Shown here: positions 45,938 to 52,948 of the stretch, one piece after another | Layout of the letters: the number at the start of each line of letters is the position of its first letter | Numbering within the stretch: the first letter of the stretch is position 1 | Source of the DNA: a virus | DNA: 64,000 bases | IMG/VR virus record: IMGVR_UViG_3300037424_000665 | Span: 41-64,040 of that record | Reading direction: 5' to 3' (one strand) | Made by a program: the position numbers and the translations under genes | Notes under the pieces: generated by a model | What the model was told of the DNA's origin: nothing | The model's input: only the letters and a program-made list of their open reading frames with translations | The model's database searches: none

Positions 45938-46317
45938 CTTGATTACAACCAAAGAACGGTTTTTCGGGCTTCGATTGTATCTCGACTCGACCGGAGAGGC
46001 CGATGTTGATGAGGCTATTCTAAGCCTTTTCCACGACCATTATACCGGCTCGGGCGCGTTGGAAATCAGCCGGACGGATTCTCAGATCGTATTGGAATGG
46101 AATAAGAAACGGGGCAAGAGACTACAAGCCGTCGATACCGGGGTGCCCGTCAAAGAGGCACGGCAGGGTCAAAAGGCCCTTTTTGAGTAGGAGCACCATT
46201 TTGTCTGCGCGCGCAAAATGGTCCGTGTAAGGAATAATGGAGTATGACGCAGGAAGAATCAAGGATGAGGATCAAGGCACTTTTTTTGGCTTTGTATTTT
46301 GGCAGCACGGAGGCACT

Positions 46318-47487
46318 ATGGCGCGGATTCGGTACTTGAAGCCAGATTTTTTTCTCGACGAGGATCTCGCGGAGCACCCATTGGAAGTCAGAATGCTCTT
46401 CGCTGGTTTATGGTGCATCGCCGATAAGGCGGGAAGGCTCGAAGATCGTCCCAAGCGAATCAAGGCCATGGTCTTTCCGTATGATGATGGAATTGATATC
46501 GAAGCGTGCCTCGACGCCCTTACCCAGCCCAAGACAAGTTCGGGACGATCTTTTATTCGCCGTTACGTGGTCAATGGGCAAGGGTACATCGACATTCCCC
46601 AGTGGGAAAAGCATCAGAAGCCTCACAGGACGGAAAAAGAAAGTATCCTTCCAGGCCCAGAGGGACAAATTATTGATAACCCGCCATATCCAGGCCGTGC
46701 TATTCGCAAACAAGTGTATGAACGAGACAACTTCCTATGTCTCTATTGCGGAGAAGATTTATCAAAGGAACCCCGCAAGATATGTCTGGATCATGTCATT
46801 CCAATCACAATGAATGGTTCCAATCGAATGGACAATCTGGCAACAGCCTGCAAGAAGTGCAATGCAAAGAAGGCAGGAAAACTCGCAGAACAGGTTGGTA
46901 TGAAGAAGCTGGATGGTTTAGGGAACACCATTAGGGAAGCTACTCCCCCCACACCCCCCGATGGGCAACGGACAACGGACAATGGGGATGGGGATGGGGA
47001 TGGGGATGGGGAACCAGGATGTCAACACACCGTCAACGTACCGTCAACGGGGGATCAGACTAAACTACAAGAAGTGTCAACGTCAACATCATCTTCCCCA
47101 AAAGAAACCAAATCCCACAAAGGCAGTCCAGCCGACAGAATCCTTTCCGCTTGGCAGAAGCTCCCCCTACCCCCCGAGAAGAAACAATTCGGTGCCGCCG
47201 ACATCCTCGCCATCGAGCGGGCCATCTCGATTTTGGCCGGCGATTCTCAGGAACCCGTCCACGCGGGTATGATTTTGGAGGCCATCGAGAACTACCGCCA
47301 AGCCCTTTCCCTCTCAGACAGCCAGACCTACAAGCACAAGCTTCACCCCTGGCTGATGGAGCATGTTCGCAAGTATGTCTCGTACAATTTCGATATAGAT
47401 CACCACCGGGGCAGTAAATACCAGAAGACAGGCAAGACCGATACGATGGCCGAAATGGAGCGACTGAAAGCAAAAGGCGAGTTATGA
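46318..47487 (+). CDS. Phage replication initiator with internal HNH domain
   Basis: GGAGG RBS; MARIR.LKPDFF.DE.LA...LF.GLWC.ADK.GRL..RP; insert RD.F.C.YCG...DHVIP...G.N..DNL..AC..CN..K. Confidence 0.8.
   Translation: MARIRYLKPDFFLDEDLAEHPLEVRMLFAGLWCIADKAGRLEDRPKRIKAMVFPYDDGIDIEACLDALTQPKTSSGRSFIRRYVVNGQGYIDIPQWEKHQKPHRTEKESILPGPEGQIIDNPPYPGRAIRKQVYERDNFLCLYCGEDLSKEPRKICLDHVIPITMNGSNRMDNLATACKKCNAKKAGKLAEQVGMKKLDGLGNTIREATPPTPPDGQRTTDNGDGDGDGDGEPGCQHTVNVPSTGDQTKLQEVSTSTSSSPKETKSHKGSPADRILSAWQKLPLPPEKKQFGAADILAIERAISILAGDSQEPVHAGMILEAIENYRQALSLSDSQTYKHKLHPWLMEHVRKYVSYNFDIDHHRGSKYQKTGKTDTMAEMERLKAKGEL
47021..47087. repeat. Iteron-like GTCAAC repeats (putative origin)
   Basis: GTCAAC at 47021, 47032, 47043, 47076, 47082; preceded by (GGGGAT)n run. 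Confidence 0.5.
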
Positions 47488-49427: not shown

Positions 49428-49725
49428 GGAGGCCTCGGACTGTTTGGCGCGGACGCTCGATGAGTTCGAAATGCTCGAAGATGAGCAGCAGAAGATTAAG
49501 AGCGACTTCAAAGCGCAGATCGAGGCCAAAGAAGCGGCGACGCGCGTGCAGAAAAACCTCGTGCGTGACAAGTACGCCCATAGGCAGGTGCGGTGCACAA
49601 TGACGATGAACTACAGCACGCTCAAGGTCATCGTGGCGCGAGATGACACCGGCGAGATCATCACTGAGAGAGCCATGAACGAGGATGAGAAGCAATTGAA
49701 GATCGACTTCGACTCGGAGGAATAG
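49339..49725 (+). CDS. Conserved phage coiled-coil protein
   Basis: L.CKLTDEE; RAM.EDEKQL. Confidence 0.65.
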   Translation: MATKTKEQPAIKTTHETRTLKCKLTDEEIREASDCLARTLDEFEMLEDEQQKIKSDFKAQIEAKEAATRVQKNLVRDKYAHRQVRCTMTMNYSTLKVIVARDDTGEIITERAMNEDEKQLKIDFDSEE

Positions 49726-49730
49726 CATCT

Positions 49731-49967
49731 ATGCCCAAGATAAAAACAAATGTCACCAAGTGGCTGCCGGCTAAGGGCCAGTGGTTCAATGTGCACCTCA
49801 AGCGCAACAATCACCTGCATTCAGCGGGGCCGTTCAAGTGCGTTGATGTGGTGGTTTACGGCGACTACGTACAACAGATCGAAGCCGTGGACAGCGAGGG
49901 CGACCGCTGGCACTTTCCGCTGTCGGAGTTTCGATTCGAGCCGGCAGCAACGCAGAAAAAGACATGA
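49731..49967 (+). CDS. Hypothetical protein
   Basis: GGAGG RBS. Confidence 0.55.
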   Translation: MPKIKTNVTKWLPAKGQWFNVHLKRNNHLHSAGPFKCVDVVVYGDYVQQIEAVDSEGDRWHFPLSEFRFEPAATQKKT

Positions 49968-50008
49968 CTCGACTCGACAAGATAAGCCTTTTTTGAAAGG
50001 AGCACAAG

Positions 50009-50587
50009 ATGTATGAAATCAACGCAACGTACAAAGGTTTAGTACCGATGATGATGGACCGATTTGCCGACCCTTCCCAAACGGAGAGGCCGTCCAAGAA
50101 AAAGGCAAAAGGGCGCAATGAAGCGGAGATTCTCGCCAAACTGCACATGGACAAAAAAGGGGTTTTTGTTCCTTCCGACAATATCCGCATGATGCTAATT
50201 GGCAACAAGCATCGTCGCGGGGCAGCACAGATTTTAGGTTCAGACATGGAAGCGGCCAAAGGGACGAAATATCTATCGATTTGCAAGGGGTTGATTTGGG
50301 TTTTGGGGACCGACGACCCGATGAAAGTTTATATCGAGCCTCGTCGGAAAACGTATGACGACGTGGATGAGCGGTCGTTCCTCAACGCTACAGGCTCACG
50401 TTCTATGGCGTATCGGCCTATCATCAAGTTGCCTTGGTCGGTGTCTTTCATTATCCAGGTCACGGATGACAATATCGACCAGAGCTTCGTCCGGCAGTTG
50501 TTCGACGTGGCGGGCCTGCGGTGCGGAGTCTGCGCCTACGGCCCGACGTTTGGCCGGTGCATTATCTCGGAGTGGAAACAACGCTAA
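50009..50587 (+). CDS. Small RAMP/Cas7-like protein (candidate guide-RNA effector)
   Basis: N-terminal strand I.ATYKGLVPMMMDRF; YRPII.LPWSVSF.I; C-terminal Gly loop AGLRCGVCAYGPTFGRCII; directly followed by phased array. Confidence 0.55.
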   Translation: MYEINATYKGLVPMMMDRFADPSQTERPSKKKAKGRNEAEILAKLHMDKKGVFVPSDNIRMMLIGNKHRRGAAQILGSDMEAAKGTKYLSICKGLIWVLGTDDPMKVYIEPRRKTYDDVDERSFLNATGSRSMAYRPIIKLPWSVSFIIQVTDDNIDQSFVRQLFDVAGLRCGVCAYGPTFGRCIISEWKQR

Positions 50588-50589
50588 CA

Positions 50590-51345
50590 GAACGCCAAAG
50601 GAAGGGACGAGACTTGAGAAGAAGTGAGCAGAACTGAGCCGAGCAGAACGCCAAAGGACCCGATGGGACCGGACTTGATACGACCAGAACCGAACAGAAC
50701 ACTAAAAGATACGAAAGGACCCGAAGGAAACAGAAGCGACCAAAGAAGAATTGAACGCAAGAAGATCGGTGTTGAAGGGAGAAGAACCGAGACGAACCGA
50801 CCAGAGTAGAGCAGAACGCCAAAGGATGTGACCTGAGTGGAAAGAAATAGAGCACAGCAGAACAGAACGCTAACAGAGTGGACCCGAGACGATATGAGAC
50901 GATTCGAACAGAATCGAACGGAACGCCACTGGAGCGGACGAGATACGAGGCGATTCGAACAGAGCCGAACAGAGCCGAACAGAACACAAGGGGACGGGAC
51001 CAGAAAAGACCAGAACCGAACAGAACGCTATTTGATTTGAAGGGAAGTGACCCGAAAAGACAAGATGTGATGGGAATTGACTTGACCAGAGAAGAACACA
51101 AGGAGAAAAGAGAAGATCAGAGTTGAGTTGAGCGGGAAAGAATAGAGAAAAATAGAACGCAAGAGGAATCAAGAAGAGCCGATTGGAAAGGAGGGGAGTT
51201 GAGTTGACATGAGCAGAATAGAACGCGAATCACCAGAAGAACTGAGCAGAAGTGAGCAGAACTGAGTAGGAAAGAAGCGATCAGAACCGAACGCCAAGGG
51301 ATCGGAATAGAGCGGAAACAAAAAGACCAAAACAGAAAGGAACAC
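50590..51345 (+). repeat. Phased pentamer array: 13 units of GAACRC-HANNN-(GANNN)6-12
   Basis: 14 anchors; 109 of 120 internal pentamers begin GA, the other 11 differ by one base; 12 of 13 anchor spacings are 5n+1. Confidence 0.95.
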
Positions 51346-51348
51346 AAG

Positions 51349-51627
51349 ATGAACATGGAAATCACAGAAGCCAGAGCAGCACAATTTGACAAACTCGAAA
51401 ATCAGGCATGCGTATTGTTGCAGGAGTACCTTGAGGGCAAGCGGACGGGCGGGGACGATATTGTAACCGCCCGCTGCGTGCTCAATGTCATCCGGGGCAA
51501 CCGCCAGACGACTACAGCACGGGATGCCCTGAGATATGCGATGGTCAGCGACTTGGGCGACCCGAAGGTGCGTGAAAGATATGTGAAGGCGACCGAGCCT
51601 GAAATCAAAAAACTGCTCAAAGCATAG
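51349..51627 (+). CDS. Hypothetical protein directly after array
   Basis: RBS overlaps last array anchor. Confidence 0.7.
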   Translation: MNMEITEARAAQFDKLENQACVLLQEYLEGKRTGGDDIVTARCVLNVIRGNRQTTTARDALRYAMVSDLGDPKVRERYVKATEPEIKKLLKA

Positions 51628-51756
51628 GGCCGGGCCTATCCAAGAGACAGACCGACCGCTTAGTGCCGGCACAAGGCAAAGGCGGCCGTTAGCCGATGAA
51701 TAGGGTGTGGGCGAATGGCCCAAACAAACAATTTCAAACAGGAAGGAAAACCGAGC

Positions 51757-52047
51757 ATGGGCTGGCAAATTGGCGACAAAATCAGGTTTGCAGACGAGCG
51801 CGGGACATACATAGTCCGAGCAGCCAGTCCGCGTTATCTGGTCTGCACCAGGCCGTATAATTTCAAACGGACTGTATTCTATACGATTGTAGATTTAGTG
51901 GTCGAGATTCGTGGTACAGAGAATCTGATTTTCGGCTTGGGTGCTGAGACGGATCGCCAGTGCTGGGAAATGCTCGTTCGCATATTGACAGGCGAGAGCG
52001 AAATCTCGCACCGCAACAGAGTGCCATTACAGATACGAAAGGACTGA
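51757..52047 (+). CDS. Conserved hypothetical protein
   Basis: GDKIRF.DER..Y.VRA...RYLVCTRP; RG.ENL.FG.G. Confidence 0.65.
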   Translation: MGWQIGDKIRFADERGTYIVRAASPRYLVCTRPYNFKRTVFYTIVDLVVEIRGTENLIFGLGAETDRQCWEMLVRILTGESEISHRNRVPLQIRKD

Positions 52048-52049
52048 GC

Positions 52050-52241
52050 ATGGACTGGATTATTGAAAACTGGGATGAGATCGTTAAGGCCGTTGGTCTG
52101 ATTATTGCAGCGGCAAGCATCATCGTGAGACTAACGCCGACGCTCCGCGACGATTCGGCGCTGCTGCCTGTCATCAAATTCCTGGGCAAGTACATAGCCC
52201 TGGACAAATACGGGACCAACGAAGTCGAGAGGCCGAAATGA
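52050..52241 (+). CDS. Holin-like small membrane protein
   Basis: MDWIIENW; one TM; TPT.RDD. Confidence 0.6.
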   Translation: MDWIIENWDEIVKAVGLIIAAASIIVRLTPTLRDDSALLPVIKFLGKYIALDKYGTNEVERPK

Positions 52242-52948
52242 GCGATATAAAAGCAATCAAACCGTTGGGGCGCAAGGCTTACGGCAGCATAGGACACTTG
52301 CCGAACAGCCGCTTAGGTCCGGGCGATCACGCTGTCCCGGATGGCTGTGCTAAAATCTGTACGCAGAAGGTCCGCGATAAACACGATCTCATTGTCGTGC
52401 AGGAGAAGCTGGATGGTTCGTGTGTTGCGGTGGCTCTGCTTAATGGACGTTTGTATCCGTTGGGTCGTGCTGGATGGTCTGCGGAGTCCTCGCCTTACGA
52501 ACAGCATCAGCTCTTTGCGCAATGGGTTTGGTGCAACGAGGACAGGTTTCGTGCCGTTCTTCAAGAGGGGGAGCGCATCGTTGGCGAGTGGTTGGCGCAG
52601 GCACACGGGACTATCTACGATCTGAGCGTGAACGAACCGTTCGCGGCTTTCGATATCATGTGCGAGGATAAGCGGTTAAGCTACCACGTTTTTCAAGAGC
52701 GAATTGAGAGGCGCTTTTGCACGCCGACGCTGCTCCATGAAGGCGGTGCCATCTCCGTCCCAGAGGCCATGAAGTTGCACGAACAGTGGCACTGGCCTTG
52801 TGACCAAGTCGAGGGGATTGTTTATCGCGTCCACCGCAAGGGGCAAGTCGATTTTCTGGCCAAGTGGGTGCGGTTCGATAAGATTGACGGCAAATATCTT
52901 CCAGAGGTGAGCGGTAAAGACGCTGTTTGGAATTGGAGGCCGCGATGA
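52238..52948 (+). CDS. ATP-dependent RNA ligase family protein
   Basis: QEKLDGS (motif I KxDG), GEW, FDI, EGIVYR, K. Confidence 0.8.
   Translation: MSDIKAIKPLGRKAYGSIGHLPNSRLGPGDHAVPDGCAKICTQKVRDKHDLIVVQEKLDGSCVAVALLNGRLYPLGRAGWSAESSPYEQHQLFAQWVWCNEDRFRAVLQEGERIVGEWLAQAHGTIYDLSVNEPFAAFDIMCEDKRLSYHVFQERIERRFCTPTLLHEGGAISVPEAMKLHEQWHWPCDQVEGIVYRVHRKGQVDFLAKWVRFDKIDGKYLPEVSGKDAVWNWRPR

What the first reader, a model, noticed from the sequence alone, without database searches (positions are those of the whole stretch)
50590..51345. Internal grammar of the array: fixed boundary, variable 5' part, codon-like triplets
Seen: the pentamer right after every anchor is not GA but always has A in position 2 (CAAAG, TAAAA, AAGAA, CACTG, TATTT...). 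The last pentamer of a unit is mostly GA(A/G)CA or GAATA-like. The boundary consensus is therefore GARCA-GAACRC-HA, while the 5' half of each unit is the most diverse. Concatenated variable triplets read like natural sequence. Unit 11 is GAG ATC GAA GCC TTG AAG GGG GTT GTT CAT GCA ATA, and unit 9 is TTTTTTAGGAGTCCCAAACAATGTTGGATTCTTCC, with an RBS-ATG-like layout. None of the 133 triplets is a stop codon, but only 17 begin with T, so this signal is weak. Inference: the boundary is a processing site, the 5' half is a seed, and targets may be coding strands or translation-initiation regions.
Basis: partly seen in the sequence, partly recalled or inferred. Interest (0 to 1): 0.8.

Follow-up and report, generated by a model that had tools for sequence, protein, structure and literature searches.

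The report
Phage VIPR guide array, GA-NNN type
The 756-base block of five-base repeats is the guide-RNA array of a phage VIPR system, a CRISPR-related DNA-silencing system first described in 2026 preprints. It uses an unusual repeat (fixed GA plus three free bases), and what its guides target is still unknown.

Summary
Window 50590-51345 (+) holds 13 head-to-tail units of 6-14 GANNN pentamers. Each unit is closed by a GAACRC hexamer that shifts the phase by one base, followed by a non-GA pentamer with A in second place.

The gene directly upstream (50009-50587) encodes a homologue of Vipr:
- Its profile matches PDB 36pp, 'SUSP1 Vipr protein', at E 2e-7.
- Its best AlphaFold DB matches are the five founding Vipr entries.

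In 65 of 67 related loci the same kind of array follows the gene on the same strand.

Across 2398 pentamers G1 and A2 are 92-96% fixed and positions 3-5 are almost free. The last 3-4 pentamers of a unit are conserved and the 5' ones are hypervariable. In a near-identical soil strain the array differs by whole-unit swaps, indels of 5 and 10 nt, and four substitutions that all fall in NNN.

This is therefore a VIPR vrRNA array with three differences from type II: a non-canonical GA/NNN repeat, no structured tail, and a conserved 92-aa helical partner.

The 'codon-like triplet' idea is not supported as stated. Stop triplets are depleted to about 0.6x, but not specifically. No target was found in a limited search.

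This scan has met VIPR systems before, in at least 11 other genomes.

The parts
49961..49985 (+). Mini-array upstream of vipr: five phased GANNN pentamers (GACAT GACTC GACTC GACAA GATAA)
   Evidence: Read directly from the sequence. Several related loci also have upstream mini-arrays.
50000..50011 (+). Boundary-like motif GAGCAC-AAG-ATG that holds the vipr start codon. It has the same layout as the array's last anchor plus the start of the next gene.
   Evidence: Compare with 51340-51351.
50009..50587 (+). vipr gene: a 192-aa minimal Cas7-like RAMP, homologous to SUSP1 Vipr
   Evidence: AF2 model pLDDT 91.8. PDB fold matches are all Cas7-family or other RAMP proteins, Z up to 11.5. The profile matches PDB 36pp_D 'SUSP1 Vipr protein' at E 2.2e-7. 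hhalign against a Felixounavirus Vipr homologue gives 96.7% probability. Five of the six best AlphaFold DB matches (ranks 1-4 and 6) are the five founding Vipr entries.
50590..51345 (+). vrRNA-type array: 13 contiguous units of 6-14 GANNN pentamers. Each unit starts with a GAACRC hexamer and an HA-NNN pentamer. A terminal anchor lies at 51340-51345.
   Evidence: The RNA is no more structured than shuffles, z -0.18. No Rfam family matches.
51221..51288 (+). Irregular unit 12 (68 nt) with an internal phase break. Its content resembles unit 1 (GAACT GAGCA GAAGT GAGCA).
51349..51627 (+). Conserved 92-aa all-helical accessory gene (vap-like). Its RBS and start codon are embedded in the last array boundary.
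   Evidence: Homologues lie next to the array in 17 related loci. No Pfam family matches. The AF2 model is helical, pLDDT 66.

Best explanation
Window 49961-51627 is a VIPR (Viral Interference Programmable Repeat) cassette of an uncultivated 64-kb phage. It consists of a Vipr RAMP gene, an array of 13 guide units and a small helical accessory gene.

Inferred mechanism, by homology with SUSP1 VIPR:
1. The + strand is transcribed together with vipr.
2. The transcript is cut at or near each GAACRC/CAA boundary into RNAs of about 50-70 nt.
3. Vipr protomers polymerise along each RNA, one per pentamer. They hold the fixed G-A with the thumb Arg-Pro and the glycine-rich loop, and expose the variable bases.
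4. The 5-9 hypervariable 5' pentamers specify a gapped DNA target, most likely with a 3-nt period on the DNA, in rival phages or other mobile elements. The target is then silenced.
5. The 3-4 conserved 3' pentamers plus the hexamer act as the handle, replacing the pseudoknot tail of type II vrRNAs.

Shown here: the array grammar, the Vipr homology, the conserved gene-array linkage, purifying selection on GA, and fast turnover of NNN and of whole units.

Inferred, not shown: transcription, processing, filament formation, the pairing rule and the targets.
For: Protein:
- The A1 profile matches 'SUSP1 Vipr protein' (PDB 36pp_D) at E 2.2e-7 over the thumb and G-loop. hhalign gives 96.7% probability.
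- AlphaFold DB ranks 1-4 and 6 are X1U2U4, A0A661D0E2, A0A0F9A1L0, A0A1F4YLN4 and A0A2D6XG06. These are the five entries the VIPR paper names as its founding hits.
- The fold is a Cas7-family RAMP, Z 11.5.

Linkage of gene and array:
- 65 of 67 related loci with at least 200 nt downstream have a GA-phased array within 150 nt of the vipr stop.
- There are 96 phased segments on the gene strand and 0 on the other strand in 350 kb.

Grammar:
- Over 2398 pentamers G1 is 0.92 and A2 is 0.96. Information at positions 3-5 is 0.18, 0.05 and 0.05 bits.
- Units are mostly 9-11 pentamers. The boundary is a hexamer in 214 of 219 units. Published vrRNAs have 9-16 repeats (10.64898/2026.04.26.720920).

Evolution:
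- A soil strain differs at only 2 of 418 nt compared in the vipr gene. In its array four units are replaced by 30 nt and one unit is swapped. One pentamer is inserted and two are deleted.
- All 4 substitutions in the aligned part fall at positions 3-5.

RNA-contact residues, aligned to SUSP1:
- R138-P139 is kept as R136-P137.
- D177 becomes A, W178 becomes Y and R179 becomes G. In SUSP1 these three residues read G1, G2 and Y3 (10.64898/2026.04.26.720927). The changes fit a changed fixed motif.

Relatives: Vipr homologues in Pseudomonas phage LESphi2 and Burkholderia phage vB_E436 carry canonical GGY/NN arrays.
Against: - No target was found. Four exact IMG/VR pattern scans (units 9, 11, 6 and 2) gave nothing beyond one chance hit.
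- 301 genomes of the order of a carrier MAG gave one chance-level hit.
- 152 guides searched against 434 kb of related phage DNA scored no better than shuffled guides, apart from one 19/21 match with about 0.06 expected by chance.
- No RNA data exist for the locus.
- The repeat is GA/NNN, not GGY/NN, and there is no structured tail. The type II pairing rule therefore cannot simply be assumed.
- Only the C-terminal third of the protein aligns to SUSP1 Vipr at the sequence level.
Confidence: 0.8

Rival explanations
1. The RNA is a protein-coated scaffold or decoy with no guide function. Vipr polymerises on the GA-phased RNA, but the variable bases carry no target information. Possible roles are titrating a rival's Vipr, protecting the transcript, or regulating the downstream gene.
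For: No target was found. Solo vrRNAs acting as decoys are described for satellites (10.64898/2026.10.15.759431). The start region of the downstream gene is embedded in the last unit.
Against: Positions 3-5 are close to maximal entropy while GA is 92-96% fixed. Units are nearly all distinct (219 distinct units). Strains differ by unit swaps while vipr is almost unchanged. This is the signature of diversifying guides and would not be needed for a scaffold. The cognate vipr gene is adjacent, so the array is not a solo decoy.
Confidence: 0.1
2. The array is a regulatory leader bound by a ring or oligomeric RNA-binding protein of the TRAP or CsrA kind, controlling translation of the 92-aa gene.
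For: Phased purine motifs every 5 nt resemble TRAP sites ((G/U)AG every 5-6 nt; own knowledge). The array ends at the RBS of the next gene.
Against: At 756 nt and 134 pentamers it is far beyond an 11-site TRAP leader. Position 3 is free, so there is no GAG or UAG triplet. In some loci the partner gene order differs and the 92-aa gene lies upstream of vipr. The conserved neighbour is a Vipr RAMP.
Confidence: 0.03
3. The feature acts at the DNA level, as iterons, a replication origin, a curved-DNA element or a recombination hotspot in the replication/recombination module.
For: It lies among replication and recombination genes: an HNH/replication-initiator-like gene here, and YqaJ-like, RecT-like, ERF and DnaB genes in relatives.
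Against: The strand asymmetry is strict, 96 segments against 0. The period is 5 nt with a 1-nt slip, not 10-11 bp. The purine skew is strong. The array is always co-oriented with vipr and adjacent to it.
Confidence: 0.03
4. It is a degenerate or atypical CRISPR array whose crRNAs load onto a phage Cas7.
For: The protein has a Cas7-like fold. Units of 51-71 nt have a conserved end and a variable part.
Against: The 'spacers' keep GA in every fifth position, so they are not captured foreign DNA. There is no 25-40-nt direct repeat. No cas gene was recognised among the 10 neighbouring ORFs scanned. The protein groups with Vipr entries before any Cas7.
Confidence: 0.02

Closest known systems
VIPR type II system of Escherichia phage SUSP1 and the P. 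fulva prophage (Vipr + vap1 + vrRNAs; bioRxiv 10.64898/2026.04.26.720920; structures 10.64898/2026.04.26.720927, PDB 36pp)
   Same: Both are phage-borne. Both have a minimal ~190-200-aa RAMP with the thumb Arg-Pro and a G-loop ending in FGR. Both have pentamer repeats with fixed and free positions, about 10 per unit, arrays flanking vipr, a small accessory gene and no cas genes.
   Different: The fixed part here is G-A with three free bases, not G-G-Y with two. The G-loop residues that read G1, G2 and Y3 are changed (D to A, W to Y, R to G). There is no ~40-nt pseudoknot tail; units abut directly through a hexamer and the RNA is unstructured. The accessory protein is a 92-aa helical protein whose relation to vap1-6 is unknown. 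The pairing rule is untested.
Non-canonical and 'staggered' VIPR arrays (NNNGG, YNNNG and NNNNG repeats and fig. S18 in 10.64898/2026.04.26.720920; GAC/NN, CAC/NN, WGT/NN and TGH/NN clusters in 10.64898/2026.10.21.760802)
   Same: These have a 5-nt period with a fixed part other than GGY. YNNNG (that is, G-Y-NNN) has the same layout of two fixed and three free bases, and GAC/NN shares the G-A. Staggered arrays have vrRNAs that abut, with the end of one marking the start of the next.
   Different: The exact motif G-A-NNN with a free third base is not among the motifs named in the text of either paper. Their figures and tables are not held here, so it cannot be checked whether this clade is already in their sets.
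Class 1 CRISPR backbone (Cas7/Csm3/Cmr4 on crRNA)
   Same: Both use the RAMP fold with a thumb and G-loop, bind one protomer per fixed number of guide nucleotides, and break the guide-target duplex periodically.
   Different: CRISPR has a 6-nt period with no sequence requirement in the spacer. It also has a Cas5/Cas6 handle, Cas1/Cas2 acquisition and large effector complexes. None of these is present here.
TRAP-binding trp leader of Bacillus (own knowledge)
   Same: Short purine motifs repeat about every 5 nt on an RNA and are read by an oligomer.
   Different: TRAP has 11 (G/U)AG triplets and a 75-aa beta-sandwich ring and acts by attenuation. Here there are 134 pentamers, only GA is fixed, and the partner is a RAMP.

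Membership tests
VIPR systems | Vipr protein: a minimal RAMP (RRM core, thumb, G-loop) homologous to described Viprs | tested here: met
   The profile matches PDB 36pp_D 'SUSP1 Vipr protein' at E 2.2e-7. hhalign gives 96.7% probability. The five founding UniProt entries take AlphaFold DB ranks 1-4 and 6, with X1U2U4 at E 1e-11 and TM 0.75/0.80.
VIPR systems | Tandem pentamer repeats with fixed and hypervariable positions, about 9-16 per RNA, in the intergenic DNA flanking vipr | tested here: met
   Period 5, units of 6-14 pentamers (mode 9-11), G1 and A2 fixed, positions 3-5 free. Adjacent to vipr in 65 of 67 loci.
VIPR systems | Canonical GGY/NN repeat | tested here: not met
   The repeat is GA/NNN. 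The papers accept 'a related consensus' (NNNGG, YNNNG, NNNNG, GAC/NN), so this excludes type II but not the family.
VIPR systems | Minimal locus: vipr plus an accessory (vap) gene, no CRISPR array or cas genes, mostly on phages | tested here: met
   The record is a complete 64-kb virus genome. A conserved 92-aa neighbour is present in 17 loci. No Cas family was found among 10 neighbouring ORFs. Only the neighbourhood was scanned, not the whole genome.
VIPR systems | vrRNAs are expressed, processed and co-purify with Vipr | not testable with these tools
   No RNA run holds the locus.
VIPR systems | Variable bases match natural DNA targets in rival elements under a gapped rule (NNx for type II) | tested here: inconclusive
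   No hit was found for four window guides in IMG/VR (exact patterns only), for one guide in 301 genomes, or for 152 guides against 434 kb of related phages. The tools allowed only a small fraction of the search done in the paper.
VIPR type II (SUSP1 clade) | Conserved structured ~40-nt 3' tail (pseudoknot) after the repeat tract | tested here: not met
   Units abut through a hexamer. The array folds no better than shuffles, z -0.18. The conserved 3' part consists of 3-4 GA pentamers.
CRISPR-Cas | Direct repeats of about 25-40 nt separated by unconstrained spacers; Cas1/Cas2 and effector genes | tested here: not met
   GA phasing runs through the 'spacers'. No cas gene was recognised nearby.
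TRAP / CsrA-type RNA leaders | (G/U)AG or GGA motifs read by TRAP or CsrA | tested here: not met
   The third base is free. No Rfam family matches. The partner is a RAMP.

The most novel reading that the evidence does not exclude
This GA/NNN clade may use a pairing code different from the published NNx rule. The G-loop residues that clamp G1 and Y3 in SUSP1 are lost here (D to A, R to G). Only two bases would then be sequestered per protomer and three bases read, giving either contiguous triplets on the DNA or 3+1. That would raise the information per protomer by half and would be a second, distinct noncontiguous code. The tail-less units joined by a hexamer would then be a minimal self-delimiting guide format.
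Probability: 0.3. Interest if true: 0.75.

Novelty: new variant of a known kind. Interest (0 to 1): 0.55.

Why it matters
VIPR is a newly described system (2026 preprints) for programmable RNA-guided DNA binding, proposed to predate CRISPR. This clade has at least 118 homologous proteins clustered at 90% identity and at least 219 distinct guide units, all from sediment and soil phages. One carrier contig belongs to a Sedimentisphaerales MAG.

The clade keeps the 5-nt protomer register but changes both the fixed bases (GA) and the residues that read them. It leaves three bases free and has no structured tail. It therefore offers a natural experiment on three questions: how Vipr recognises its repeat, how many bases per protomer can pair, and how vrRNAs are delimited.

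For annotation, the grammar (GANNN)n followed by a GAAxx pentamer and a CAANNN hexamer gives a simple detector for this clade.

Tried and rejected
1. Rfam: no family matches.
2. Coding region or pentapeptide reading: rejected. The 5-nt period with hexamer slips cannot keep a frame, and the long minus-strand ORFs are a by-product of the purine skew.
3. Self- or kin-targeting: six decoding rules tested against 182 kb, then four rules against 434 kb of related loci. Results equal shuffled guides except one 19/21 match.
4. IMG/VR exact scans:
   - Unit 9, period 3, 22 specified bases: 0 hits.
   - Unit 11, period 3, 18 specified bases: 1 hit in an AT-rich non-coding stretch, with 1 of 6 further positions and 2 of 12 p3 positions matching, so chance.
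   - Units 6 and 2, contiguous 21-mers: 0 hits.
5. 301 genomes of the order of the Sedimentisphaerales carrier MAG, up to 3 mismatches: one hit at the chance level.
6. Codon hypothesis:
   - The pooled stop depletion is real but not specific.
   - The codon-model likelihood gain vanishes once the six stop-related triplets are removed.
   - Co-occurrence of sense and antisense stops within units is at chance.
7. Third-position ('wobble') excess among paralogous units: 6:6:9 differences at positions 3, 4 and 5, too few to tell.
8. RNA evidence: no RNA run holds the locus.
9. Host genomes for L006 and L007 are not held.
10. The model of the 92-aa protein was too uncertain (pLDDT 66) for a fold search, so none was run.
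11. Decoded guides could not be sent to BLAST-type tools, because a concatenated decoded string has no reference. That step was left out.

Full report
WHAT IS THERE

Window 50590-51345 (+) is a 756-nt purine-rich tract lying between two + strand genes. It is built from pentamers that start with GA. Every 6-14 pentamers there is a hexamer GAAC[AG]C. Anchors lie at 50590, 50646, 50697, 50753, 50814, 50865, 50921, 50982, 51023, 51094, 51155, 51221, 51289 and 51340, and all spacings but one equal 1 mod 5. A run of seven phased GA occurs 31 times in the 64-kb window. All 31 lie here on the + strand, against 0.00 expected from shuffles.

- The pentamer after the anchor has A in second place in 14 of 14 cases and is non-GA in 13 of 14.
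- The last pentamer of a unit is GARCA in 7 of 13 units.
- Units 9 and 11 decode as written.
- There are 134 pentamers, 16 starting with T, and 0 stop triplets against 4.2 expected.

Unit 12 (51221-51288) breaks phase internally. A five-pentamer mini-array lies upstream of the preceding gene (49961-49985). Both flanking genes start in the same GA(G/A)CAC-AAG-ATG context.

No Rfam family matches. The RNA folds no better than shuffles, z -0.18. No + strand promoter-like site falls in 49500-52300, and no terminator-like site falls within the array.

THE NEIGHBOURING GENE

The 192-aa product of 50009-50587 has no Pfam family and matches only PHROG 4652, of unknown function. It has 118 metagenomic homologues.

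An AlphaFold model built on 40 homologues is confident, pLDDT 91.8. Its solved-structure matches are all RAMPs, led by Cas7-type backbone subunits (Csm3, Cmr4, type VII Cas7), with Z up to 11.5.

A literature search then turned up the VIPR preprints. These describe phage-encoded 'Vipr' RAMPs that polymerise on vrRNAs made of 9-16 pentamers, with GGY fixed and NN free. One protomer binds each pentamer. The complex reads dsDNA with a one-base skip (NNx) and silences rival phages and satellites.

Membership was tested directly:
- The profile of my alignment matches PDB 36pp_D, 'SUSP1 Vipr protein', at E 2.2e-7 over the thumb and G-loop.
- hhalign against the Felixounavirus homologue gives 96.7% probability.
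- In the AlphaFold DB cluster library, ranks 1-4 and 6 are X1U2U4, A0A661D0E2, A0A0F9A1L0, A0A1F4YLN4 and A0A2D6XG06. These are exactly the five entries the paper names as its founding hits.
- tblastn also finds full-length homologues in Pseudomonas phage LESphi2 (31% identity) and Burkholderia phage vB_E436. Their upstream intergenic DNA carries canonical GGY/NN arrays.

LINKAGE AND GRAMMAR ACROSS RELATIVES

Related loci were collected from IMG/VR, JGI, ENA and Logan contigs and from two MAGs.

- Of 67 loci with a complete vipr 3' end and at least 200 nt downstream, 65 have a GA-phased array starting within 150 nt of the stop.
- In 350 kb there are 96 phased segments on the gene strand and none on the other strand.
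- From 54 loci I parsed 219 distinct units with 2398 pentamers. G1 is 0.92 (1.50 bits) and A2 is 0.96 (1.70 bits). Positions 3, 4 and 5 carry 0.18, 0.05 and 0.05 bits.
- Units are mostly 9-11 pentamers. The boundary token is a hexamer in 214 of 219 units and starts with CAA in 147.
- The general rule is (GANNN)n, then GAAxx, then CAANNN.
- Within units, the last 3-4 pentamers are conserved per phage and the first 5-9 are hypervariable. This confirms '5' half most diverse'.

EVOLUTION

Contigs from soil metagenomes carry a close strain. Its vipr gene differs at 2 of the 418 nt compared, but its array is remodelled:
- 50588-50796 (four units) is replaced by 30 nt of other pentamers.
- 50822-50871 is replaced by 80 nt.
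- One pentamer (GAGGT) is inserted after 50946.
- Ten nucleotides are lost at 50956.
- The four substitutions in the aligned part fall at positions 3, 5, 4 and 4 of their pentamers. None falls in GA.

This rejects drift from one ancestral pentamer. It is the pattern expected of guides under diversifying selection with the phase preserved.

RNA-READING RESIDUES

In SUSP1 the contacts are as follows (10.64898/2026.04.26.720927):
- G1 is read by H17 and D177.
- G2 is read by R138 (thumb) and W178.
- Y3 sits in a pocket that includes R179.

In the HMMER alignment R138-P139 corresponds to the invariant R136-P137 here. D177 is Ala, W178 is Tyr and R179 is an invariant Gly. The changed fixed motif (GA, free third base) therefore has matching changes in the reading residues. 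Which of positions 3-5 are exposed for pairing cannot be deduced from this. That step is inference.

THE ACCESSORY GENE

The 92-aa product of 51349-51627 has homologues next to the array in 17 loci. It usually lies just after the array and sometimes before vipr. It has no Pfam family, and a modest-confidence model is all-helical. It is the likely counterpart of the 'vap' genes. Its relation to vap1-6 is unknown.

DECODING AND TARGETS

Stop triplets. Pooled over the first 12 arrays, stop triplets in the p3p4p5 register looked strongly depleted. The codon-model likelihood was higher than for column shuffles, but the gain came entirely from the six stop-related triplets. With 1741 variable-part triplets the picture changed:
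- The depletion is partial: 44 against 72 for sense stops and 40 against 61 for antisense stops.
- Non-stop triplets such as CAC, CCT, GGA and TCC are depleted as much.
- Units holding both kinds of stop are as common as chance, 5 against 6.5.

The triplets are therefore not a faithful in-frame mirror of ORFs, and the stop-codon argument is no evidence for codon targeting.

Target searches were limited by the tools:
- Exact IMG/VR scans for units 9 and 11 used a period-3 mask, which also covers the contiguous triplet reading. Scans for units 6 and 2 used contiguous 21-mers. Together they gave only one hit, of chance quality.
- 301 genomes of the order of the Sedimentisphaerales carrier MAG gave one chance-level hit.
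- 152 guides against 434 kb of related phage DNA under four rules equalled shuffled guides. The exception was one 19/21 contiguous match of an L072 guide to a small gene beside the VIPR locus of L033, with about 0.06 expected by chance. This is a lead only.

No self-target was seen, as the published systems also report.

VERDICT

The array is the vrRNA array of a VIPR system. It is a known kind, published as preprints in April-October 2026, and this scan has met it in at least 11 other genomes.

It is a variant in four respects:
- The repeat is G-A plus three free bases. The papers name YNNNG, NNNGG, NNNNG and GAC/NN, but not this motif.
- The G-loop residues are changed.
- Units are tail-less and abut through a hexamer, akin to the 'staggered' arrays.
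- It has its own small helical partner.

Its specific claims remain untested: processing at the boundary, a 5' seed, and codon or translation-initiation targets. The codon argument is not supported.

Noticed in passing
L011:4979-5248 against window 51349-51627: The 92-aa accessory protein of phage L011 is 84-86% identical to the window's, although the two Vipr proteins are only 54% identical. This suggests modular exchange of the accessory gene between VIPR cassettes.
   Followed up: no
window 49961 (run X1, record 2): In the same sediment sample a 151-nt contig joins the region just upstream of vipr to at least 30 nt, and up to 110 nt, of GA-phased pentamers (GACTC GACTT GATAG ...). A co-occurring variant therefore has a longer upstream array.
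   Followed up: no
L015:4627-5828: A related phage (IMGVR_UViG_3300031673_000201) carries a 1.2-kb array of about 18 units with the handle GAAAA GAAAA CAAC. Two adjacent units differ at only 3 positions, indicating recent unit duplication.
   Followed up: partly
L072:1364 to L033:7993: One guide decodes, as contiguous triplets, to a 19/21 match in a small gene about 750 nt downstream of the VIPR array of another phage. About 0.06 such matches are expected by chance in the whole cross-search. It is a possible kin-targeting lead.
   Followed up: partly
L008 (= L004 reversed) and L007: In relatives the cassette sits inside the recombination/replication module: between a YqaJ-like exonuclease and a RecT-like gene in L008, and after ERF and before DnaB in L007.
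   Followed up: no
L034, L035: Carrier contigs occur in a Sedimentisphaerales (Planctomycetota) MAG and in an 'Acholeplasmataceae' MAG. The latter array is identical to L007 and L016 from other samples, so it is probably one widespread phage binned into different MAGs.
   Followed up: partly
window 46237-47487 and 52238-52948: A 416-aa protein joins a replication-initiator-like N-terminus to an HNH nuclease domain. A 236-aa RNA-ligase-family protein lies 600 nt downstream of the cassette.
   Followed up: no
decoded units, all loci: An SD-like motif followed by 4-10 nt and a start codon occurs in 5 of 219 decoded units against 1.9 expected (P 0.03). This is weak and was not corrected for the many tests run.
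   Followed up: partly
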